Part shown: in pieces, positions 50,050 through 60,728 of the stretch | Numbering within the stretch: the first letter of the stretch is position 1 | Layout of the letters: every line of letters starts with the position of its first letter | Origin: Escherichia phage KEP4 | Reading direction: 5' to 3' (one strand) | Sequence record: PP047754 | Length of the DNA stretch: 64,000 nt | Notes under the pieces: model-generated | The model's database searches: none | Told to the model about the DNA's origin: nothing | What the model saw: the letters and a program-made list of their open reading frames with translations, nothing else | Position numbers and translations under genes: made by a program

Positions 50050-50118
50050 TCGACACTAAATCCTCAAGTTCGACTTTCACTTTAAATACCTTCGCATACA
50101 TTGCGGAGGTATTTTCTT

Positions 50119-50913
50119 ATGGCCATTCTAAAACTTGGCAACCGAGGTTCTGAAGTCAAAGCACTTCAACAAAGCCTCAACAAAATCGGTTTCTCCCTTA
50201 CAGCCGATGGCATATTTGGTAAAGCAACAGAGAATGCAGTCAAATCCGTTCAGGCAGGTGCTGGATTGGTTATTGATGGTATTGCTGGGCCAAAGACCTT
50301 CTATGCTATCCGCAACGCTGGAGACGCTCACCAGGAACATCTGACCGAAGCGGACTTGGTTGACGCAGCACGTGAACTTGGTGTTGAGCTGGCCAGTATG
50401 AAAGCTGTGAATCAGGTAGAATCCCGTGGCACGGGTTTTACCAAAACTGGCAAGATCAAAACTCTGTTTGAGCGCCACATCATGTACAAAAAGGTGACGG
50501 CCAAATTCGGGCAAGCAAGAGCCAATGCTCTGTACCAACTCTACCCAACATTGGTTAACCCCAATTCTGGCGGGTATATCGGCGGAGACGCGGAGTTGGA
50601 ACGCCTTCAGGGTGCAATCGCCCTTGACGAGGACTGCGCTTACGAGAGTGCTTCCTACGGCCTATTCCAGATCATGGGGTTCAACTGCCAAATCTGTGGA
50701 TATCCAAATGCCAAAGAGATGTTCACTGATTTCCTGACTGGTGAACGCGCTCATCTTCTGGCATTTGTCAAGTTCATCAAGGCTGATGCCAATATGTGGA
50801 AAGCCCTGAAGAACAAGAATTGGGCCGAGTTTGCTCGTCGGTACAATGGTCCGGCATATGCGAAAAACCAGTATGATACTAAACTGGCGGCAGCATACAA
50901 GAGTTTCTGCTAA
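50119..50913 (+). CDS. endolysin: N-terminal peptidoglycan-binding domain + C-terminal muramidase-like domain
   Basis: GGAGG RBS; LKLGNRGSEVKALQQSLNKIGF ... DGIFGKATENAVKSVQ (PG_binding_1-like); C-terminal YGLFQIMGFN ... WAEFARRYNGP. Confidence 0.7.
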   Translation: MAILKLGNRGSEVKALQQSLNKIGFSLTADGIFGKATENAVKSVQAGAGLVIDGIAGPKTFYAIRNAGDAHQEHLTEADLVDAARELGVELASMKAVNQVESRGTGFTKTGKIKTLFERHIMYKKVTAKFGQARANALYQLYPTLVNPNSGGYIGGDAELERLQGAIALDEDCAYESASYGLFQIMGFNCQICGYPNAKEMFTDFLTGERAHLLAFVKFIKADANMWKALKNKNWAEFARRYNGPAYAKNQYDTKLAAAYKSFC

Positions 50914-50944: not shown

Positions 50945-51020
50945 TCTGATATACAGGTATGCTGGGCGTGTCGCTTAATTAAAGGTGTCGACAACCCCTG
51001 TAGATATAGGAAGGTTCAAC

Positions 51021-51860
51021 ATGCAATCTGCGTCTAAAGTTGTATCCATGAAGCCAGCGAAGACAAAATCTGCTCGTAAGAAAGACACCATCCAGAAGGA
51101 AGAAGACTGGATGAAGTTTTCCAAAGGCGATTTCAAAATTGCTCCGTTCAATGGCCTCTCAGAAAATCAGAACCTCGCATATCAATCCGCACTCAATGAA
51201 CATCTCACTATCGCTATCGGTCCGGCAGGTACAGGCAAATCCTATTGTGGTGCGTCCGCTGCTGCCAAGCATCTGATTGACAAAACAATCAACAAGATCA
51301 TCATCACACGTTCTCCCCTTCCAACTGGCACCACAGCGGGGTTCCGGCCTGGTGACACATATGAAAAACTGATGCCTTATTTGATGCCGCTCATACAGAC
51401 ATTCAAAAAGGTTCTCAAAACAGATACGGGTTCCGACGGTTTCTTCAACTATCTGTGGGAGAAACGCATCATAGAAATTCAAGACCTTGAAACTGTAAAA
51501 GGGATGACTTTCGATGATTGTTTCCTGATTATCGAAGAGGCGCAGGAATGCGATATGGAGCAGCTGAAAAACTTGTTGACTCGTGCTTCAGATTCTTCGT
51601 ACATCTTCGTAAATGGAGATATCAAACAGTCTAACAAGCGACTGCGTGATAGTGCGTTACAGACGTATGTGGATTCCTTTAAAGACTTCAACAACAAGCT
51701 GGAAACAGGTTCCTTGCAAATTGACGGTGTAGAAATCGGGGATGAATATCCAGAGTGGGTTCAACCATTCAGCATCATCGAATTCGATAAGTCTGATCGT
51801 AATGGTCGCGGCAACTTCACCCGCCTGATGTTAGAAATTAACGACCTGTACAACATTTAA
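51021..51860 (+). CDS. phoH: PhoH-like ATPase
   Basis: Walker A GPAGTGKS, Walker B-like FLIIEEAQ, overall PhoH architecture. Confidence 0.8.
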   Translation: MQSASKVVSMKPAKTKSARKKDTIQKEEDWMKFSKGDFKIAPFNGLSENQNLAYQSALNEHLTIAIGPAGTGKSYCGASAAAKHLIDKTINKIIITRSPLPTGTTAGFRPGDTYEKLMPYLMPLIQTFKKVLKTDTGSDGFFNYLWEKRIIEIQDLETVKGMTFDDCFLIIEEAQECDMEQLKNLLTRASDSSYIFVNGDIKQSNKRLRDSALQTYVDSFKDFNNKLETGSLQIDGVEIGDEYPEWVQPFSIIEFDKSDRNGRGNFTRLMLEINDLYNI

Positions 51861-51944
51861 ATACCACACGAACTTCCCCGCCGCCTTCAATCCATGGAGG
51901 CGGTGTATAATAACAGCCTGCATAAACACAAACCGAGGATCGCT

Positions 51945-54221
51945 ATGATTAACATCATAAAGCGGGACGGATCTTCTGTCCCCTTTGACATTGAAAAACT
52001 CCATACCGTTATTGAACGAGCATGTGACGGCCTTGAAGGAGTATCAGTGTCTGAGGTGGAAGCTGCATCGAAGATTCAATTCACCGATAACATGAAAACC
52101 GAACGCATTCAGGATATCATTATCCAAGCTGCGGCCACCTTAATTTCTGTTGATAAACCCAATTATCAATATGTTGCTGCCCGCCTGAAGTCGTATGACC
52201 TGCGCAAGGTTGTCTATGGTCAGTACAAACCACCTCATTTGCTGGATATCTTTGCAAAGAACACCAAGCTGGGTGTTTATGACCGCGAATTCCTCGAACT
52301 TTACTCTAAAGAAGAATTCGAAGAACTTAACACAGTCATCAACCACAAACGCGACAAGAATTTCACTTGGGCAGCAATGGGCCAGCTGACTCAAAAATAT
52401 CTTTTGCGTGATCGTTCTTCTGACAGCAAAGTGTATTATGAAACCCCTCAAGTCATGTACATGGCAATCGCTATGGCATTATTCTCAGCGTGGGATAAAG
52501 AAAGCAGACTGACAATGGTGAAGAAGTTCTATGAATACGCCAGTACAGGCAAATTCAGTCTTCCAACACCTATTATGTCCGGCGTCCGCACCCCGACCCG
52601 ACAGTTCAGCTCTTGTGTATTGATCAAAACTGGTGATACATTGGACTCAATTAATGCCACTGCGAAAAGCATCGTGGATTATGTTTCCAAACGTGCTGGC
52701 ATCGGATTCGATGTTGGAGCAATTCGTGGCATCGGTAGCCCTATCCGTAAAGGGGAAATGGTCCATACAGGTCTGGTTCCATTCATCAAGTATTTGACTG
52801 GTGCCCTGAAGTCTTGCTCTCAAGGCGGTATCCGTGGTGGATCGGCAACATGCTATGTTCCCATCTGGCATTATCAATTTGATGATGTCGTTGTTCTCAA
52901 AAACAACCGTGGATTGGAAGAGAACCGTGAACGCCGTATCGACTATGGGATTCAGATTAACCGCGTCATGTTCGAGCGCCTGGTGAACAAACAGCCTCTA
53001 TACCTGTTTGATCCAAAAGACAACCGCGAAATGTATGAAGCATTTTTCGCAGACGTCAATAAATTCCGCGAAATGTACGACAATATGATCAAGGCCGCCG
53101 ACGCCGGATTATGTCGTTCCAAAAAGCTGCAAGCTGAAGAAGTGTTCCAAATGCTACTAGACCAGCGTTCTGACACTGGCCGGATCTACATCGCATTCGT
53201 TGATCACATGAACGAGTATAGTCCGTTCAATTTGGACACGATTTATAGCTCTAATCTATGTTTAGAAATCGCGCTCCCGACTCGTGAGTTCCAACAGTAT
53301 GATGATGAAGATGGTCGCATTGCCCTGTGTACACTCGCATCATTTAACCTGACGGCATTTGAAGATCCAACAGAAATGGAAGATGTTGCTTTCGTTCTGG
53401 TTTCAGCTTTGGATATGTTGTTGGAATATCAGGACTACCCAGCTCGCCAAGCCCGTTTGGCCGTAGAAGAATATCGTCCTCTGGGTATCGGTATCGTCAA
53501 CGTCGCACATTTCCTGGCCAAGAATTTCACGGGTTATGGATCGCCTATCGGATTAGAACTTCTAGACAAGTGGATGGCGCATCTTCATTTCTACTTGGTC
53601 AAAGCGTCCAACCGTCTGGCCATGCGTTTCGGATCTTGTAAGAAGTCAACTATCCATGATTCCGGATTTGTAACAGCCGACCTTCAGCCTCTCCCGCTGG
53701 ACATCCTACCCAATGGCAAAAAGCCTGTTGGGCAAGCCTATGGTCTTGACTGGGAAGGTCTTAAGCAGAACCTATCCGAGTATGGGATCCGTAACGCCAC
53801 GTTGTTAGCCGTAGCACCAACTGAAAGCTCCTCTCAGGTGCTGAACGCAACGAACGGTATAGAGCCACCAAAAGGTCTCATCAGCATCAAAGGCAGCAAG
53901 GATGGCGTCTACAAGCAGATCGTTCCGGACGTTGAAACCCTTGGTCCTCTATATGACCTGAAATGGAATCTGGATTGTATTGAATACCTGAAGACGGCTG
54001 CGGTCATACAACGTTGGGTAGATCAATCTATCAGTACCAACACATGGTATGACCCAGAGAAATATCCAGAAGGCAAGATCCCGCGCTCTCTTATGATGCA
54101 GGATATTCTGTCTTTCTACATGTGGGGTGGTAAAACTCTGTATTACAACACCAACAAAGACTCCAAGGAAGATGAAGAGTTGAAACAAGTTGAAGAAATT
54201 TGTGATACCTGTGTTGTTTGA
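51945..54221 (+). CDS. nrdA: ribonucleotide reductase class Ia large subunit NrdA
   Basis: N-terminal ATP-cone MINIIKRDGSSVPFDIEKL; about 758 aa; GAGGA RBS before 51945 (in-frame ATG at 51894 has no RBS). Confidence 0.9.
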   Translation: MINIIKRDGSSVPFDIEKLHTVIERACDGLEGVSVSEVEAASKIQFTDNMKTERIQDIIIQAAATLISVDKPNYQYVAARLKSYDLRKVVYGQYKPPHLLDIFAKNTKLGVYDREFLELYSKEEFEELNTVINHKRDKNFTWAAMGQLTQKYLLRDRSSDSKVYYETPQVMYMAIAMALFSAWDKESRLTMVKKFYEYASTGKFSLPTPIMSGVRTPTRQFSSCVLIKTGDTLDSINATAKSIVDYVSKRAGIGFDVGAIRGIGSPIRKGEMVHTGLVPFIKYLTGALKSCSQGGIRGGSATCYVPIWHYQFDDVVVLKNNRGLEENRERRIDYGIQINRVMFERLVNKQPLYLFDPKDNREMYEAFFADVNKFREMYDNMIKAADAGLCRSKKLQAEEVFQMLLDQRSDTGRIYIAFVDHMNEYSPFNLDTIYSSNLCLEIALPTREFQQYDDEDGRIALCTLASFNLTAFEDPTEMEDVAFVLVSALDMLLEYQDYPARQARLAVEEYRPLGIGIVNVAHFLAKNFTGYGSPIGLELLDKWMAHLHFYLVKASNRLAMRFGSCKKSTIHDSGFVTADLQPLPLDILPNGKKPVGQAYGLDWEGLKQNLSEYGIRNATLLAVAPTESSSQVLNATNGIEPPKGLISIKGSKDGVYKQIVPDVETLGPLYDLKWNLDCIEYLKTAAVIQRWVDQSISTNTWYDPEKYPEGKIPRSLMMQDILSFYMWGGKTLYYNTNKDSKEDEELKQVEEICDTCVV

Positions 54222-54291
54222 TTAGGTCTATACAACACAAACGTTTAATATCAGGGGTGATTCGTCACCCCTTATTCATCAGGAAAGAAAC

Positions 54292-55395
54292 ATGAACGAA
54301 CAAAAGCAATTTTCAGTATTTGACCCATCTTCAGATAATACAGGACTGCCGTTCTTTGGCGACCCTGTGAGCATTCAGCGCTATGACATCGTGGCATGGC
54401 CTTTTGTACAGAAGTGGTATGAGAAAGGTCTCAGCCAGTTCTGGCGTCCGGAAGAAGTGGATGTCACCAAAGACAAAGCAGACTTTGCCACTCTATCCGC
54501 TGCGGAACAACACATCTACTTCAGCAACCTGAAACGCCAAACCATGCTGGACTCTATTCAGGGCGCTGCTCCGTTCGAAGCGTTTGGCCCATGGGCATCA
54601 ACTCCGGAAATCCAATTTGCTATTCTGGAGTGGACGCGCCAAGAAGCCATCCACTCACTATCTTACACGCATATCCTTCGTAACACAGTGAATGATCCTG
54701 GTATCGTTTTTGACCATGTTCTGGACGTTCAGGAGATCGTCGATTGCGCCGGACAGATCAGCGTGTACTACGACGACATGGTGCGTTACAGCGGGATGCG
54801 TATGGCTGGACGCGCGTTCACCCGTGAAGACATCATGAACGCCAAGCGTGCATTCTGGCGTGCTCTGTTTGCTGCTAACTCCCTCGAAGGCGTTCGTTTC
54901 TATGTTTCATTTGCGTGTTCTTGGGCATTCATGCAATTCCTCAACAAAATGGAAGGCAACGCTAAAATCATCCGTCAGATTGCTCGTGATGAGCAAGATC
55001 ACCTCATCCTGACCCAGACTTTCCTGAACCGTCTGCCGCTGTTGGACCCTGATTTTGCCATTATTAGAGAAGAACTGCGCGGCGAAATGACCCAGATGTA
55101 TGTCGACGTTGTCAACCAAGAAAAAGAATGGGCGAATTATCTGTTCAAAGACGGCTCAATGCTGGGACTGAATGCCAATATCCTTCATCAAATGGTGGAC
55201 TGGTTGGCAACACATCGTATGGGGGCTATTGGCCACCCATACCCAGGACAAGCCCGTAAAGACAATCCGGTGCCATGGATAAATGAGTGGCTAGATAATA
55301 AAACAATGCAATATGCATTACAGGAAGCGGAAGCTCCTGATTATCTGACTGGTGTCCTTACTGGATCAGTCTCCGACGGTCTGAAATTTGCCTAA
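54292..55395 (+). CDS. nrdB: ribonucleotide reductase small subunit NrdB
   Basis: 367 aa; di-iron ligand motif EAIHSLSYTHI; directly downstream of nrdA. Confidence 0.9.
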   Translation: MNEQKQFSVFDPSSDNTGLPFFGDPVSIQRYDIVAWPFVQKWYEKGLSQFWRPEEVDVTKDKADFATLSAAEQHIYFSNLKRQTMLDSIQGAAPFEAFGPWASTPEIQFAILEWTRQEAIHSLSYTHILRNTVNDPGIVFDHVLDVQEIVDCAGQISVYYDDMVRYSGMRMAGRAFTREDIMNAKRAFWRALFAANSLEGVRFYVSFACSWAFMQFLNKMEGNAKIIRQIARDEQDHLILTQTFLNRLPLLDPDFAIIREELRGEMTQMYVDVVNQEKEWANYLFKDGSMLGLNANILHQMVDWLATHRMGAIGHPYPGQARKDNPVPWINEWLDNKTMQYALQEAEAPDYLTGVLTGSVSDGLKFA

Positions 55396-55404
55396 AGGTG
55401 AGAA

Positions 55405-55629
55405 ATGATTACGATTTATTCCAAACAAGGTTGTGCGCAATGTTTACAAGCTGAAAACATCTGTCGCATTCGCGGTATTGAACACCAAATTCTGAAGCTA
55501 GACAAAGACTACAAGCTGGAAGAATTACAGAAAATCACTGGTAAGCAACGCATGTCTATGCCCGTGATTGTTCTGGCTGACCAAACCGTGACCGACGTTA
55601 CTGGACTCGCCGCAAGTTTGAAACGCTGA
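55405..55629 (+). CDS. glutaredoxin/NrdH-like redoxin, 74 aa
   Basis: MITIYSKQGCAQC CxxC active site; adjacent to nrdAB. Confidence 0.6.
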   Translation: MITIYSKQGCAQCLQAENICRIRGIEHQILKLDKDYKLEELQKITGKQRMSMPVIVLADQTVTDVTGLAASLKR

Positions 55630-56772: not shown

Positions 56773-57153
56773 TCAGTTTGTGCGTTTTAACCATATGGTG
56801 TCTGTTATCGGCTCTGGGTTGTTGACCACATAGAACGTGATGGTTACGCCCAGAGAATGATAATCGTCCGACAATGATACATCAACAGATTGCAATTCAG
56901 CTCTTGGCTCAAAAAGAGCAATGGCATCTTCAACTTTGTTCTTCACGTCGACCTGTATCGTGGGATTTGTGTTTTCCCCCAACATGGTATACAACCCTGC
57001 CCCAATACTCGGATACGTCGGCCAATCACCTACCGTCGACATCACTATATTACGCACAGATTGTAGTACAGCATAAATGCCTGTTTTCTTAGTGACATCT
57101 TTGGTGACCGGATGCATGCCAAACTTCAGGTCAATGTCCTTGTACTCTTTCAT
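56773..57153 (-). CDS. baseplate wedge protein gp25 (GpW/lysozyme-like fold)
   Basis: 126 aa; PSIGAGLYTMLGEN ... VEDAIALFEPRAEL pattern parallels T4 gp25 (FGCDLSDQLFEN ... YEPRIDKL). Confidence 0.65.
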   Translation of the reverse strand: MKEYKDIDLKFGMHPVTKDVTKKTGIYAVLQSVRNIVMSTVGDWPTYPSIGAGLYTMLGENTNPTIQVDVKNKVEDAIALFEPRAELQSVDVSLSDDYHSLGVTITFYVVNNPEPITDTIWLKRTN

Positions 57154-57217
57154 GTTAAACCCCTTTGGATATTGCCTCTCCAGCACGAGAGGGCATTATC
57201 TGCCCTCACCAGTGTAA

Positions 57218-58843
57218 TCATGCGCCTTTACCACCAAAATTGCCGCCGTTATCCTCTAACTCCGGTTTTATATCAATTGGACCTGGGCCTGTAGTTGTTA
57301 CAGGAGTTGCCCCCGCACGTGAGGCGGCGCGACCAGCGCCTTCAGCATATTTGATGTTGCCTTCAATAGTCTGCGCCACCGACAACTTATCACAAACTAT
57401 TTCACTAGCCAGTATTTTAGGCACTTTCAAAGTATTGGAAACTTCCAACATTTCACAGATGAGACGCAACACGTTCTGTGCCTGTATCTCTGCCAATTGG
57501 GAAAATTTCATCAACGCCGTGCCAGCGACCACATTGGAGTAGTTAGAAGAGTGCAAGTGGTAAACTTCTCCTGTCTTACGCTGTACTTCAGTCCCGCCGA
57601 TAGTCAGGTTGTGATCACGACCAACATAGTAACGTTTGTCAAACATCGTCAGATCATAATGATCTTTGACTGATTTATTGACCACGTCCCCGTCAGGAAG
57701 CATCTGCTTATAAGACCCCGAGGAGTGCATCCAATGGAGACGTTCCCCGCCTGGTGTGTCATCAACCTCCATAATATGCCCCGACCGAGATGCCATGACA
57801 TTGTTGTAAGGATAACGAGACCCGCCAGCAGAAGGAACCGACACCTCTCCTGTGTTATCAATATCTTGAACACGCCCAGAAGGAGGCGGAGTTTCCTGAA
57901 CTTTTGGTGTACGATCAGGGATTGGCTCAGACCATTTACCATTTTGTTGTGTAGGAGCCGCCGATGCTGTCGTAGCAGGACCAGGCCAACGATAACCCAA
58001 CACAGATGAGCGGCTGAAGCGACTCACCTTCACAGAATCTGATTGGTTGCCTCCAATACACCAAACATAATTGGCATCGAATTTCTGCACGAACGCAACG
58101 TGTCCGAATGTTGGGTTGTTGCCACGCCGGAATACAACAACAGCGCCGTAGCGGGGTTCCGACAAAGGGGAACCCCATTGCAAATATGAACGAGCCAAAG
58201 CCGAGCGCGTTGAAGTGTATCCTGCTTGGATCAACACCCATCCCACAAATGAAGCGCACCAGCTGACTTCATCTTCCGAAGCGCCCAAAGATGTTGTCTT
58301 GTGATATTCCAAAATCCTTGGGTTATTATTGAATTTGCCAGAATATTCTTTGACACCTAATTCACCACGAGCCACTGTCATCCATTTCTCAGGATCATAA
58401 CCGTCTACAGGCGGTTGAGGTTCTGGTTGTGGGTCGTCTTCAATCTTGACAGGAACATTTTCAACGGCGTTATATTTCTGTCTTTCTATAGATTGAACAA
58501 CCTGGCCCAGCGCCAACGGGTTTGTGTCTGAACCATCCGTTGGTGTCGCCGCTGGCCAAACCCAGGCGATACGAATATTTTGGTATGCTTCATCCAAAGC
58601 AAATCCCATAACATCCGACCCGACTGTAATACCCGTTGGAGACCAGCCTAAACCTGCCGAGGAGGCGTTGGATGCTGGCATGAGCATTTTACCCCAAGGC
58701 AATAATTCGGTAGGTAAGAGAGTGGTATCTTCCGTGTGTACACCATAGATGCGCACAGCGACGCGCCCGTTCTGGTCGGGATCATTCACGTCTTCAACGC
58801 GCCCGTAAAACCAACGCAAGTTGTCTAACATATTGAAACCCAT
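57218..58843 (-). CDS. baseplate central spike/hub protein gp5 with CHAP/NlpC-P60-like peptidase domain
   Basis: N-terminus LRWFYGRVEDVNDPDQNGRVAVRIYGVHTEDTTLLPTELLPW matches the gp5 OB domain; middle VSWCASFVGWVLIQAGY ... GHVAFV resembles a Cys/His CHAP core, not a T4-lysozyme domain. Confidence 0.65.
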   Translation of the reverse strand: MGFNMLDNLRWFYGRVEDVNDPDQNGRVAVRIYGVHTEDTTLLPTELLPWGKMLMPASNASSAGLGWSPTGITVGSDVMGFALDEAYQNIRIAWVWPAATPTDGSDTNPLALGQVVQSIERQKYNAVENVPVKIEDDPQPEPQPPVDGYDPEKWMTVARGELGVKEYSGKFNNNPRILEYHKTTSLGASEDEVSWCASFVGWVLIQAGYTSTRSALARSYLQWGSPLSEPRYGAVVVFRRGNNPTFGHVAFVQKFDANYVWCIGGNQSDSVKVSRFSRSSVLGYRWPGPATTASAAPTQQNGKWSEPIPDRTPKVQETPPPSGRVQDIDNTGEVSVPSAGGSRYPYNNVMASRSGHIMEVDDTPGGERLHWMHSSGSYKQMLPDGDVVNKSVKDHYDLTMFDKRYYVGRDHNLTIGGTEVQRKTGEVYHLHSSNYSNVVAGTALMKFSQLAEIQAQNVLRLICEMLEVSNTLKVPKILASEIVCDKLSVAQTIEGNIKYAEGAGRAASRAGATPVTTTGPGPIDIKPELEDNGGNFGGKGA

Positions 58844-59350
58844 TAGTCAATTAGAATCATGGGTTATTTATGGCGGGGATTTGAAATCTGTCGAATAGTA
58901 ATATTATAGGAAGCTCTGCTTCCGTTCAATTTTATTCTTTTCGTTTCTACTCGCTGAAGCTCGTAACACCGCCTTGACAGGCAGTCCCATTCCAATGCCA
59001 TGGAGGCATAAAGGCGAGGAAAATACTGTACACCTCAGAACATGCGTAGAAAAGGATTATTTTTGCTTCAAAACAAATTCAAACCCCAATTTACACAACA
59101 CTTACTTCAGCAACAACGGTGTTATAGCAATTTAAGGTTAAACGTTCCTGTCTTAACCTATAAAACAGGTAAGCAAAGAAAACCCCACATTACGTGGGGT
59201 TGGAAGATTTCTTGGACAAACGTATCTTTAGTGTCTCTGTTAGCAAATCAAGATGCCAAGGCATCGACTCGCTTATTTCAAATATGCTATAGCCATGTGC
59301 CTTTAATTCGTCACACATCACAAAGTAGGAGAGTAAATCAATTTCAAAAA

Positions 59351-60154
59351 TTAAATGAAAATTTCAGTGACACTGTTAAATTTGACTTCATGTTCTTTCC
59401 CACACGAAGGACATTTAATTTTCGTCGCGTAACGGATACGAGGAATCTTTTTAAAGAAATCGTCGGATATATCTTGAACAATCTCAGATTCAATATTTTC
59501 CCCCACCCATTTAACAAATTCATCTTTGACGCGTTGACGTTCTTTAGCAACATCAGGTGCTATGCCAGGCTCTGCCGGATTCTCTACTTTCCAAACCTGA
59601 CCATCATCGTCATACAAACAATCAATAAATGTCGCGATCATTTGCTCCACAGATGATGCTTCGTTGAGCACTGAGGCGTCCGAGAAGGACGGTTGACGCA
59701 TCTTGATGTGATAGCCACCAGGGAGGTCAAATGTTTCCCTGAAGCCTTCTGGGGACACGCATTTCACTTGGTTGAGGGGGATCGGTAAAACAAGTTCTTG
59801 ACCACATTCTTTAAGGCCAGAAACTGGTTCTTCACCTTCATTTGTGTCGGATGGAACTTTGTTGTTACATTTGTATCGTATCTTCATGACCTCGCCGATA
59901 GATATACAGCGCATCTTTAAAAATACTTCTTCAGTAACACCGATTGGCAGTTTACTAAAGGGAACCCCAGCGTCAACACAACTATCAAACAGTTGCTCCA
60001 GCGTCGCCACACGTTCACTCATAGGAGTGTTCGGATCAGCAACCTGAAGTAACATGGTCTGTTGCCCTGCTGTGAAAGCGCGGTATTTAATCACCGTCGG
60101 CCAGAAATCACTTTTGTGTGTTCTCTCAGTTTTGGGCAATGATGGTAAATTCAT
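59351..60154 (-). CDS. late structural protein, probable baseplate component (identity uncertain), 267 aa
   Basis: GGAGA RBS and TATAAATA late promoter upstream on the - strand; co-oriented with gp5 and gp25; C-terminal CPSCGKEHE zinc-ribbon-like motif; ORF-track start 60247 not used. Confidence 0.4.
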   Translation of the reverse strand: MNLPSLPKTERTHKSDFWPTVIKYRAFTAGQQTMLLQVADPNTPMSERVATLEQLFDSCVDAGVPFSKLPIGVTEEVFLKMRCISIGEVMKIRYKCNNKVPSDTNEGEEPVSGLKECGQELVLPIPLNQVKCVSPEGFRETFDLPGGYHIKMRQPSFSDASVLNEASSVEQMIATFIDCLYDDDGQVWKVENPAEPGIAPDVAKERQRVKDEFVKWVGENIESEIVQDISDDFFKKIPRIRYATKIKCPSCGKEHEVKFNSVTEIFI

Positions 60155-60182
60155 AATGTATCTCCACGGTATATTGTAACCA

Positions 60183-60190
60183 TATTTATA
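60183..60190 (-). promoter_or_regulatory. T4-type late promoter TATAAATA (reverse strand)
   Basis: Forward tatttata = TATAAATA on the - strand, about 29 bp upstream of reverse ATG 60154. Confidence 0.45.
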
Positions 60191-60203
60191 ATGAGGACCG
60201 AAA

Positions 60204-60728
60204 ATGCACGCGTTCTGTTTCAGTAAAGTTGGAGAACAACTTACCATTAATTATCCGGATACAAATACGGATTTCTTTGTATTGCTAACGGATTTCGCAA
60301 ATAAATTGGGGATCAAGAATATCGCCATGACTGTGGACGATATGAAATTTGGTCGTCTGGGTGTAAAAGATTTATTGAATTACGGATTCAACGTAATCAT
60401 CGTCGATCAGACATACAGCCCAATTGACGAGGAAGATGTTATTCCAGTTTGGGTTCAACGAGACATAAACACTCTGGATAAACATTATCCCGATTGTGTC
60501 ATCATTGGCGAATTAATACTATATTTTCATAAACGTCGTCGGCTTGAATCAATTAAAAGTTATTTTCAAGATAGCGATGACGGATATAAAATGGATGTCC
60601 TTACGAGCGGTTGGGTTGTGAAGAATACCACAGGCAATGCCGACCGAATTACTTCCCGTCTTTATGAATATGTTAAAGAACGGGATTATGAACTGGAGAA
60701 CAATAATGCCAAACGTAGAACGCGCTGA
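60204..60728 (+). CDS. hypothetical protein, 174 aa
   Basis: ATG after GAGGA RBS; divergent from the baseplate gene. Confidence 0.45.
   Translation: MHAFCFSKVGEQLTINYPDTNTDFFVLLTDFANKLGIKNIAMTVDDMKFGRLGVKDLLNYGFNVIIVDQTYSPIDEEDVIPVWVQRDINTLDKHYPDCVIIGELILYFHKRRRLESIKSYFQDSDDGYKMDVLTSGWVVKNTTGNADRITSRLYEYVKERDYELENNNAKRRTR

What the first reader, a model, noticed from the sequence alone, without database searches (positions are those of the whole stretch)
57218..58843. gp5 baseplate spike with a CHAP/NlpC-P60-type peptidase domain in place of the lysozyme domain
The N-terminus is an unmistakable gp5 OB-domain (WFYGRVEDVNDPDQNGRVAVRIYGVHTEDT ... LPW). The central region has a Cys ... His arrangement (VSWCASFVGWVLIQAGY ... 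GHVAFV) typical of CHAP or NlpC/P60 cysteine peptidases rather than the T4-lysozyme fold found in T4 gp5. The phage would then cut peptide cross-links, not glycan strands, during tail penetration.
Basis: partly seen in the sequence, partly recalled or inferred. Interest (0 to 1): 0.55.

Follow-up and report, generated by a model that had tools for sequence, protein, structure and literature searches.

The report
Phage tail spike carrying a peptidase

Summary

"Cross-links" is one of three possibilities.

The finding is not new. Kutter et al. 2011 (Virol J 8:430) described exactly this for CBA120 gp5, which is 528/537 identical and identical throughout the catalytic domain. About 280 sequenced Ackermannviridae share the architecture. 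Most records still label the gene "tail lysozyme".

No biochemical test was found. Interest is low, and lies in an untested enzyme family and a misleading annotation. In passing, I found a conserved, mostly unannotated 42-codon ORF just upstream.

The parts
57218..58843 (-). Whole ORF: gp5-type baseplate central spike, 541 codons plus stop. The probable real start is Met5, at the ATG at 58829-58831, which gives 537 aa.
   Evidence: ORF list. PHROG 430 E=4e-157. 99.8% identical to phage bering bering_104. 528/537 identical to CBA120 gp5. Met5 is invariant.
58550..58825 (-). N-terminal OB-fold domain (aa about 7-98). In T4 this domain docks the spike onto the gp27 hub.
   Evidence: Pfam Gp5_OB aa 39-98 E=5e-10. 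phmmer to T4 gp5 (1k28/1wth/1pdl) aligns aa 7-87 to gp5 6-91, domain i-E about 1e-11. Confident strands at aa 10-96 in the AF2 model.
58385..58549 (-). Linker 1 (aa 99-153), Pro/Glu-rich and predicted disordered. Its length is similar to the T4 gp5 linker 130-173.
   Evidence: pLDDT <50 for aa 100-146. Sequence. T4 domain boundaries from PMC4576200.
57986..58384 (-). Middle enzyme domain (aa 154-286): TIGR02594 / CHAP, a papain-like cysteine peptidase of the NlpC/P60 superfamily. It sits where T4 gp5 has its lysozyme.
58256..58258 (-). Codon of Cys196, the predicted catalytic nucleophile (W195-C196 motif).
   Evidence: 43 of 44 aligned domain copies have Cys. W195 is present in 44/44. Codon checked.
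58100..58102 (-). Codon of His248, the predicted general base (G-H-V motif).
   Evidence: 44/44 conserved, and V249 is also 44/44. Codon checked.
58043..58054 (-). Codons of G264-G265-N266-Q267. Asn266 (or Gln267) is the predicted third, polar member of the triad.
   Evidence: All four residues are 44/44 conserved. The assignment as third triad residue is inferred from the pattern of CHAP and NlpC/P60 enzymes. It was not measured on the model.
57833..57985 (-). Linker 2 (aa 287-337), Pro-rich and predicted disordered. It corresponds to the T4 gp5 linker 340-388, which holds the maturation cleavage site in T4.
   Evidence: pLDDT <50 for aa 294-344. Sequence. T4 boundaries. The T4 cleavage site is from my own knowledge. 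Cleavage was not tested here.
57332..57832 (-). C-terminal beta-helix region (aa 338 to about 504), homologous to T4 gp5C. This is the membrane-piercing needle, and it would be trimeric.
   Evidence: phmmer aligns aa 341-434 to T4 gp5 384-475, domain i-E about 1e-14. The PHROG 430 alignment runs to aa 504. Beta strands at aa 347-407 in the AF2 monomer. Beyond about aa 440 the assignment is inferred from alternating hydrophobic residues and conservation among orthologs.
57221..57331 (-). Gly/Pro-rich C-terminal tail (aa 505-541) ending in the conserved ...ELEDNGGNF motif. Orthologs in other Ackermannviridae genera carry about 70 more residues after this motif.
   Evidence: C-terminal alignment of 8 orthologs. 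pLDDT <50.
56773..57186 (-). Downstream gene on the same strand: gp25-type baseplate wedge subunit.
   Evidence: Pfam GPW_gp25 E=1.2e-8. PHROG 261/43.
59351..60247 (-). Upstream gene on the same strand: T4 gp26-type baseplate hub subunit.
   Evidence: Pfam T4_baseplate E=1.9e-51. PHROG 150 E=1.2e-63. Annotated gp26 in CBA120.
50101..50913 (+). Separate endolysin (PG_binding_1 plus N-acetylmuramidase). It is not part of the spike. It shows that the phage's predicted exit enzyme is a glycosidase unrelated to the spike enzyme.
   Evidence: Pfam Muramidase PF11860 E=3.6e-58 and PG_binding_1 E=3e-16. Listed as 'endolysin N-acetylmuramidase' among the conserved proteins of Vi01-like phages, PMC10892097.

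Best explanation
The gene encodes the central cell-puncturing spike of a Kuttervirus (Ackermannviridae) contractile tail. It has the same three-part plan as T4 gp5:
- an N-terminal OB domain that seats the trimer on the hub;
- an enzyme domain held between two flexible linkers of about 50 residues each;
- a C-terminal triple-stranded beta-helix needle.

The enzyme cassette is a TIGR02594/CHAP-type papain-like cysteine peptidase (Cys196, His248, Asn266), not the GH24 lysozyme of T4.

On sheath contraction the needle is driven through the outer membrane. Three copies of the peptidase are carried into the periplasm, where they locally open the peptidoglycan by cutting its peptide part, and the tail tube can then pass. 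The most likely cut is the gamma-D-Glu-mDAP bond of the stem. The cross-link or the MurNAc-L-Ala amide bond is also possible.

Shown here: domain identities, conservation of the catalytic residues, the fold, the gene neighbourhood and the absence of any glycosidase signature. Taken from the literature: orthologs are present in virions. Inferred: trimer formation, delivery to the periplasm, enzymatic activity and bond specificity.
For: Domains:
- Gp5_OB and CHAP above Pfam cut-offs.
- TIGR02594 full length at E=8.5e-39.
- T4 gp5 structures match both flanks but not the middle.

Catalytic residues: C196 43/44, H248 44/44, GGNQ 44/44, across copies down to about 29% identity.

Fold:
- pLDDT 91.6.
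- Foldseek agrees.

Peptidoglycan as substrate:
- The closest non-spike relatives join this domain to LysM, PG_binding_1, SLT, phage lysozyme or Hydrolase_2 domains.
- TIGR02594 proteins are annotated as phage endolysins and T6SS effectors.
- One TIGR02594 T6SS effector is reported to make target cells burst.

Context:
- The gene lies between gp26-type hub and gp25-type wedge genes on the same strand.
- Orthologs were detected in purified virions of Sajous1 (20 spectra) and of Vi01 (as cited).

Anatomy: linkers of 55 and 51 residues, against 44 and 49 in T4.
Against: - No enzymatic assay exists for this protein, and none was found for any Ackermannviridae gp5.
- No TIGR02594 member has a solved structure detectable by sequence (best E=0.1), and no bond specificity was found in the papers searched.
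- The Pfam NlpC/P60 model itself (PF00877) does not match this protein at E<=1. NlpC/P60 placement rests on fold and on NCBI's and the literature's superfamily assignment.
- The full-length monomer model is poor outside the OB and enzyme domains (mean pLDDT 63.9), so the trimeric needle is inferred from homology.
Confidence: 0.85

Rival explanations
1. The middle domain is an N-acetylmuramoyl-L-alanine amidase or a DD-endopeptidase that cuts cross-links. It is not a stem-cutting DL-endopeptidase. The spike works in the same way, but the bond cut is different. The cross-link case is the first reader's wording.
For: - Pfam's best match is CHAP, a family that includes amidases and cross-bridge endopeptidases.
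- MepS, a DD-endopeptidase/LD-carboxypeptidase, is among the top Foldseek hits.
- The S. rhizophila paper calls its TIGR02594 effector an 'amidase'.
Confidence: 0.35
2. The domain is a catalytically inactive or purely structural remnant, for example a peptidoglycan-binding or spacer module. The needle penetrates mechanically without enzyme help.
For: - No activity has been measured.
- One aligned homolog (P0041) has Ala in place of the Cys, so inactive copies of the domain exist.
- Some contractile phages lack enzymatic domains altogether (abstract of PMC11948020).
Against: - Cys196, His248 and GGNQ are strictly kept in every spike ortholog and in 43/44 copies overall. That is the pattern expected of an active site under selection.
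- The fold is a complete papain-like core with high confidence.
Confidence: 0.05
3. The middle domain is a glycoside hydrolase after all (a very divergent lysozyme or transglycosylase), as the public annotation 'tail lysozyme' implies.
For: Only the product names in database records. These were transferred from T4 gp5 through the flanking domains.
Against: - No glycosidase family matches at E<=1 in Pfam or NCBIfam.
- T4 gp5 structures do not align to aa 88-337.
- The invariant residues are Cys/His/Asn, not the Glu/Asp of lysozymes.
Confidence: 0.01

Closest known systems
Escherichia phage CBA120 gp5 (orf092, AEM91805.1), described in Kutter et al. 2011, Virol J 8:430 (PMC3184105)
   Same: The two proteins are 528/537 identical, and identical through the whole catalytic domain. 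The gene order gp26 - gp5 - gp25 is the same. The paper states that the protein lacks the usual lysozyme and has a CHAP / TIGR02594 / NlpC_P60 domain at aa 150-282, flanked by T4 gp5-like regions 3-109 and 334-437.
   Different: Nine substitutions outside the enzyme domain. The ORF in this window can be read four codons further upstream.
Bacteriophage T4 gp5 (tail-associated lysozyme; PDB 1K28, 1WTH, 1PDL)
   Same: - Three-domain plan: OB domain, then enzyme, then beta-helix.
- Sequence homology of the OB domain (aa 7-87) and the start of the helix (aa 341-434).
- Similar linker lengths.
- Located among baseplate genes.
   Different: - The enzyme cassette is unrelated: a papain-like Cys peptidase of about 133 aa here, against a GH24 lysozyme of about 166 aa in T4.
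- In T4 the spike lysozyme is related to the phage's own endolysin (as the CBA120 paper also notes). Here the endolysin is an unrelated N-acetylmuramidase.
- The distal half of the needle and the C-terminal tail show no detectable similarity to T4.
TIGR02594 family (NlpC/P60 superfamily): phage endolysins, T6SS effectors and multi-domain wall hydrolases
   Same: Full-length match above the curated cut-off. The family's invariant WC...GHV...GGNQ pattern is shared.
   Different: Here the domain is inserted into a structural spike protein instead of standing alone or being joined to wall-binding modules. No member appears to have a solved structure or a defined cleavage site.
NlpC/P60 DL-endopeptidases with solved structures (C. 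difficile Acd24020, B. subtilis LytE and CwlO, E. coli MepS)
   Different: Only 16-24% identity. Pfam PF00877 does not match this protein. The N-terminal helical part (aa 150-190) lies outside the shared core.
Peptidase-bearing hubs and tips of other contractile or tailed machines: diffocin hub-hydrolase CD1368 (8V3W), Staphylococcus phage 812 hub CHAP domain (9EUF/9EUM), phage Andhra gp10, phage K ORF56
   Different: Those machines attack Gram-positive walls and use other scaffold proteins. This one is a Gram-negative, T4-type gp5 scaffold.

Membership tests
T4 gp5-type baseplate central spike | N-terminal gp5 OB-fold domain | tested here: met
   Pfam PF06714 40.2 bits against a cut-off of 25. 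Aligns to T4 gp5 residues 6-91 in solved structures.
T4 gp5-type baseplate central spike | C-terminal gp5C-type beta-helix | tested here: met
   aa 341-434 align to T4 gp5 384-475, domain i-E about 1e-14. Only the proximal part is detectably homologous. Trimeric intertwining could not be tested with a monomer model.
T4 gp5-type baseplate central spike | Middle GH24 (T4-type) lysozyme domain | tested here: not met
   No PF00959 or other glycosidase match at E<=1. T4 gp5 does not align to aa 88-337. The fold is NlpC/P60-like. The protein is therefore a gp5-scaffold homolog but not a 'tail lysozyme'.
T4 gp5-type baseplate central spike | Encoded among baseplate genes and present in the virion | tested here: met
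   Flanked by gp26-type hub and gp25-type wedge genes. Virion presence comes from the literature on orthologs (Sajous1 gp13; Vi01, cited) and was not tested for this phage.
TIGR02594 (NCBIfam subfamily) | Score above the curated cut-off with full model coverage | tested here: met
   132.9 bits against 70.55, model positions 2-132 of 132, aa 154-286.
CHAP domain (Pfam PF05257, peptidase family C51) | Score above Pfam's gathering threshold | tested here: met
   40.7 bits against 26, aa 191-266, model positions 4-81 of 81.
CHAP domain (Pfam PF05257, peptidase family C51) | Conserved N-terminal Cys and C-terminal His | tested here: met
   C196 43/44 and H248 44/44 in aligned domain copies.
NlpC/P60 (Pfam PF00877, peptidase family C40) | Match to the family's own profile | tested here: not met
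   PF00877 is absent at E<=1 for this protein. Two related multi-domain proteins (P0024, P0025) do carry precomputed PF00877 hits. Membership therefore holds at superfamily or clan level only.
NlpC/P60 (Pfam PF00877, peptidase family C40) | Papain-like alpha+beta fold with a Cys on a helix N-terminus facing a His on a beta strand | tested here: met
Peptidoglycan peptidase/amidase (functional class) | Hydrolysis of a peptide or amide bond of peptidoglycan that depends on the Cys | not testable with these tools
   This needs a zymogram or muropeptide analysis of the wild type and of C196A.

The most novel reading that the evidence does not exclude
No TIGR02594 member appears to have a solved structure or a mapped cleavage site, so the spike enzyme could have a specificity not yet described for a virion-associated lysin of a Gram-negative phage. 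One example would be a strict cross-link DD-endopeptidase. Another would be an enzyme tuned to a particular wall feature. Showing this would give the first biochemically defined peptidase on a T4-type spike. A 2017 review lists only phi6 P5 as a proven endopeptidase among virion lysins of Gram-negative phages. Related open points are whether the host or a superinfected cell has a peptidase-specific counterpart of T4's Spackle inhibitor, and what the conserved 42-codon ORF next door does.
Probability: 0.12. Interest if true: 0.4.

Novelty: already known. Interest (0 to 1): 0.15.

Why it matters
The practical value is modest.

1. About 280 deposited Ackermannviridae genomes, and papers that rely on them, call this gene a 'tail lysozyme'. 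One paper reasons about 'lysis from without' on that basis. The enzyme is a cysteine peptidase, so the label is chemically wrong.

2. It is a clear example of cassette exchange in the gp5 scaffold. In the protein database, gp5-OB proteins carry lysozyme, M15 metallopeptidase or CHAP/TIGR02594 modules.

3. The activity has not been tested. A muropeptide analysis would define the specificity of the whole TIGR02594 family, which also supplies T6SS effectors and endolysins. It would also add a peptidase-type virion lysin active on Gram-negative walls to the enzybiotic toolbox.

None of this would surprise a specialist.

Tried and rejected
- Lysozyme or glycosidase reading: rejected by Pfam, NCBIfam, PDB sequence search and two fold searches.
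- Direct membership of Pfam NlpC/P60 (PF00877): not met. Kept at superfamily level only.
- Profile search of solved structures for a close template of the middle domain: only weak NlpC/P60 hits (E 0.1-1.3).
- Full-length monomer AlphaFold model: uninformative for the needle (mean pLDDT 63.9).
- Search for experimental work or a cryo-EM baseplate structure of an Ackermannviridae phage naming this protein: none found in the held library. The library lacks most subscription-journal papers, so absence is not proof.
- Rfam scan of the whole window, to explain the 507-nt gap upstream of the gene: no family at gathering score.
- The T4-late-promoter-like GCCATAAATA just upstream of the start is conserved in phiMAM1. 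It is not enriched in the window: 4 matches with up to one mismatch against 4.2 expected. No promoter claim is made.
- Sigma-70 promoter scan: no more sites than in shuffled sequence.
- The answer did not depend on them.

Full report
**What is there.** The coordinates 57218..58843 delimit exactly one ORF of 541 codons on the minus strand. The plus-strand translation is full of stops.
- WFYGRVEDV... at aa 11;
- LPW at aa 48;
- VSWCASF... at aa 193, with Cys196;
- GHVAFV at aa 247, with His248.

The real start is probably the second ATG (Met5, nt 58829-58831). Met5 is an invariant column in a 34-sequence alignment. The CBA120 and phage May genes are annotated from it.

**Where the window comes from.** The 4 kb around the gene is 98.3% identical to Salmonella phage vB_SenM-2 and 95-96% identical to many other Kuttervirus genomes. 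The protein is 99.8% identical to bering_104 of Salmonella phage bering (Ackermannviridae, Kuttervirus). About 280 phage records hold a full-length homolog of at least 60% identity, all from Enterobacterales phages of this family.

The gene lies between a T4 gp26-type hub gene (59351..60247, Pfam T4_baseplate E=1.9e-51) and a gp25-type wedge gene (56773..57186). All three are on the minus strand.

**Domain anatomy.**
- Pfam gives Gp5_OB (aa 39-98, E=5e-10) and CHAP (aa 191-266, E=3.5e-10). Both are above their gathering scores, and nothing else credible matches at E<=1.
- NCBIfam gives TIGR02594 over aa 154-286, covering positions 2-132 of a 132-position model (E=8.5e-39, 132.9 bits against a cut-off of 70.55).
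- Against all solved structures, T4 gp5 (1K28, 1WTH, 1PDL) and a related spike (9F4A) match in two separate stretches only: aa 4-87 (OB domain) and aa 338-434 (start of the beta-helix). The 250 residues between them find nothing.

According to PMC4576200, T4 gp5 has an OB domain at 1-129, a lysozyme at 174-339 and a beta-helix at 389-575. Here the corresponding parts are about 7-98, 154-286 and 338 to about 504. The linkers are 55 and 51 residues, against 44 and 49 in T4, and both are predicted disordered. The scaffold and linker lengths are therefore kept, and only the enzyme cassette differs.

**Is the middle domain a cysteine peptidase?** I cut the domain out of every homolog recovered by one database search and aligned 44 copies, down to about 29% identity.
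- W195, H248, V249, G264, G265, N266, Q267 and V271 are invariant.
- C196 is present in 43 of 44 copies. The one exception, a non-spike protein, has Ala.
- A second alignment made by the alignment tool gave the same invariant set.

This is the Cys...His...polar pattern of papain-like wall peptidases.

An AlphaFold2 model of aa 145-300 is confident (mean pLDDT 91.6, pTM 0.87).
- Foldseek against the PDB puts NlpC/P60 enzymes first (MepS, C. difficile Acd33800 and Acd24020, LytE). CHAP domains follow (LysK CHAPK, LysGH15).
- No lysozyme or transglycosylase appears in either list.
- In the viral structure library the best matches are spike and tail proteins and endolysins carrying the same domain.

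That condition is not met.

**Is peptidoglycan the substrate?** This is inferred, from several lines.
- The closest non-spike relatives join the domain to LysM, PG_binding_1, SLT, phage lysozyme or Hydrolase_2 modules.
- TIGR02594 proteins are annotated as endolysins in Pseudomonas phages.
- They are also annotated as NlpC/P60-type T6SS effectors in Stenotrophomonas.
- One such effector is reported to cause rapid bursting of target cells.
- Orthologs of the spike itself were found by mass spectrometry in purified virions of the Vi01-like phage Sajous1 (gp13, 20 spectra, next to the wedge protein gp12). According to Kutter et al. they were also found in Vi01.

**How it most likely works.** By homology with T4 gp5, three chains form a spike. 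The OB domains sit under the hub and the C-terminal parts intertwine into a needle. On sheath contraction the needle crosses the outer membrane and carries three peptidase domains into the periplasm. There they cut the peptide part of the wall locally, so that the tube can reach the inner membrane.

The domain identities, fold, conserved triad and context are shown. Trimerisation, delivery, activity and specificity are inferred.

The bond cut is not determined.
- The nearest folds are mostly gamma-D-Glu-mDAP endopeptidases.
- MepS and (from my own knowledge) Tae3 act at the cross-link.
- CHAP enzymes include amidases.

'Not glycan strands' is well supported.

The same window also encodes a separate endolysin made of PG_binding_1 plus an N-acetylmuramidase (50101..50913). 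The predicted entry and exit enzymes are thus unrelated. In T4, by contrast, the spike lysozyme is related to the endolysin, as the CBA120 paper also notes.

**Comparison with what is known.** The finding is already in the literature. Kutter et al. 2011 (Virol J 8:430, PMC3184105), in the section 'Baseplate Lysozyme', make three statements about the 537-aa gp5 homolog of CBA120:
[quoted passage not shown] - This domain is flanked by regions 3-109 and 334-437 shared with T4 gp5.

I fetched that gene. It is 528/537 identical to the window's protein, with no difference inside the catalytic domain. Public protein records already carry PF05257 plus PF06714, and one copy is named 'TIGR02594 family protein'.

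The same OB-plus-TIGR02594 fusion also occurs outside the family: Rhizobium phage RL2RES (35.6% identity over aa 7-286) and metagenomic proteins P0026, P0028 and P0030. The domain alone occurs in hub proteins of Vibrio phages. Other gp5-OB proteins carry lysozyme or M15 peptidase modules, so exchange of the enzyme cassette is a general feature of this scaffold.

What has not been done, as far as the held library shows, is any biochemical test. A 2017 review lists only phi6 P5 as a demonstrated endopeptidase among virion lysins of Gram-negative phages. Most genome records, and some papers, still call the protein a 'tail lysozyme'.

**Verdict.** The novelty rating is 'already known'. It was predicted in silico in 2011 for a 98%-identical ortholog and is a routine domain call today. 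Interest is low (0.15). The remaining value lies in correcting a misleading annotation and in an easy experiment that would define an uncharacterised peptidase family.

**Things seen in passing.**
- The 507 nt between the hub gene and the spike gene are unannotated in many records. Their first part is a 42-codon ORF (ATG at 59318, stop at 59190-59192, minus strand; MCDELKAHGYSIFEISESMPWHLDLLTETLKIRLSKKSSNPT).
  - In the first 32 codons, 12 codons differ synonymously from phiMAM1 and 8 non-synonymously.
  - It is found by tblastn in 280 phage records, the same set of phages that has the spike. It is usually not annotated.
  - A hairpin-plus-T-run terminator at 59201..59181 overlaps its stop.
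- Kuttervirus spikes end just after a conserved ...ELEDNGGNF motif. Serratia and Erwinia phage orthologs and related metagenomic proteins of 605-617 aa have about 70 extra C-terminal residues with a small beta-rich domain.
- The window holds no tRNA genes and no Rfam family at gathering score.

Noticed in passing
window 59190..59318, minus strand (within the unannotated gap 58844..59350): A 42-codon ORF (MCDELKAHGYSIFEISESMPWHLDLLTETLKIRLSKKSSNPT) lies directly after the gp26-type hub gene. Against phiMAM1 and phage May, changes are frequent at synonymous sites: 12 synonymous against 8 non-synonymous codon differences in the first 32 codons with phiMAM1. tblastn finds it in 280 phage records, the same Ackermannviridae set that has the spike. 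It is mostly unannotated there, and sometimes called 'hypothetical protein'. It is probably a real small gene of unknown function in the baseplate cluster.
   Followed up: partly
window 59181..59201, minus strand: An intrinsic-terminator-like hairpin (AACCCCACGTAATGTGGGGTT followed by TTCTTTGCTT) overlaps the stop of the 42-codon ORF. Phages May, Maynard and Menlow have a terminator annotated at the equivalent place. This suggests that the spike gene has its own promoter in the roughly 330 nt that follow.
   Followed up: partly
window 58865..58874, minus strand: GCCATAAATA lies about 21-30 nt upstream of the first ATG and resembles the T4 late promoter TATAAATA. It is identical in phiMAM1, although the surrounding sequence has diverged. 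The motif is not enriched in the window (4 matches with up to one mismatch against 4.2 expected), so it is only a candidate late promoter.
   Followed up: partly
window 57221..57331 (aa 505-541 of the spike); orthologs P0014, P0016, P0021, P0022: Kuttervirus spikes stop a few residues after a conserved ELEDNGGNF motif. Orthologs of 606-617 aa (Serratia phage vB_SmaA_3M, Erwinia phage phiEa2809 and two metagenomic proteins) continue for about 70 residues, ending in a small conserved beta-rich segment (…VVVLKVAGQKPVFKFSDGSSWEDM). The spike tip therefore differs among these relatives. What caps it is unknown.
   Followed up: partly
window 50101..50913, plus strand: A separate endolysin with PG_binding_1 plus an N-acetylmuramidase (PF11860, E=3.6e-58) lies next to a PhoH-like gene (50985..51860). 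The ORF as listed starts at TTG, and the true start was not examined.
   Followed up: partly
window 51894..55629, plus strand: Class Ia ribonucleotide reductase alpha and beta subunits and a glutaredoxin lie immediately beside the baseplate cluster, as in all relatives. In phage bering both the alpha and the beta gene are labelled 'alpha subunit', which is an annotation slip in that record.
   Followed up: no
whole window: No tRNA genes and no Rfam family at gathering threshold.
   Followed up: yes
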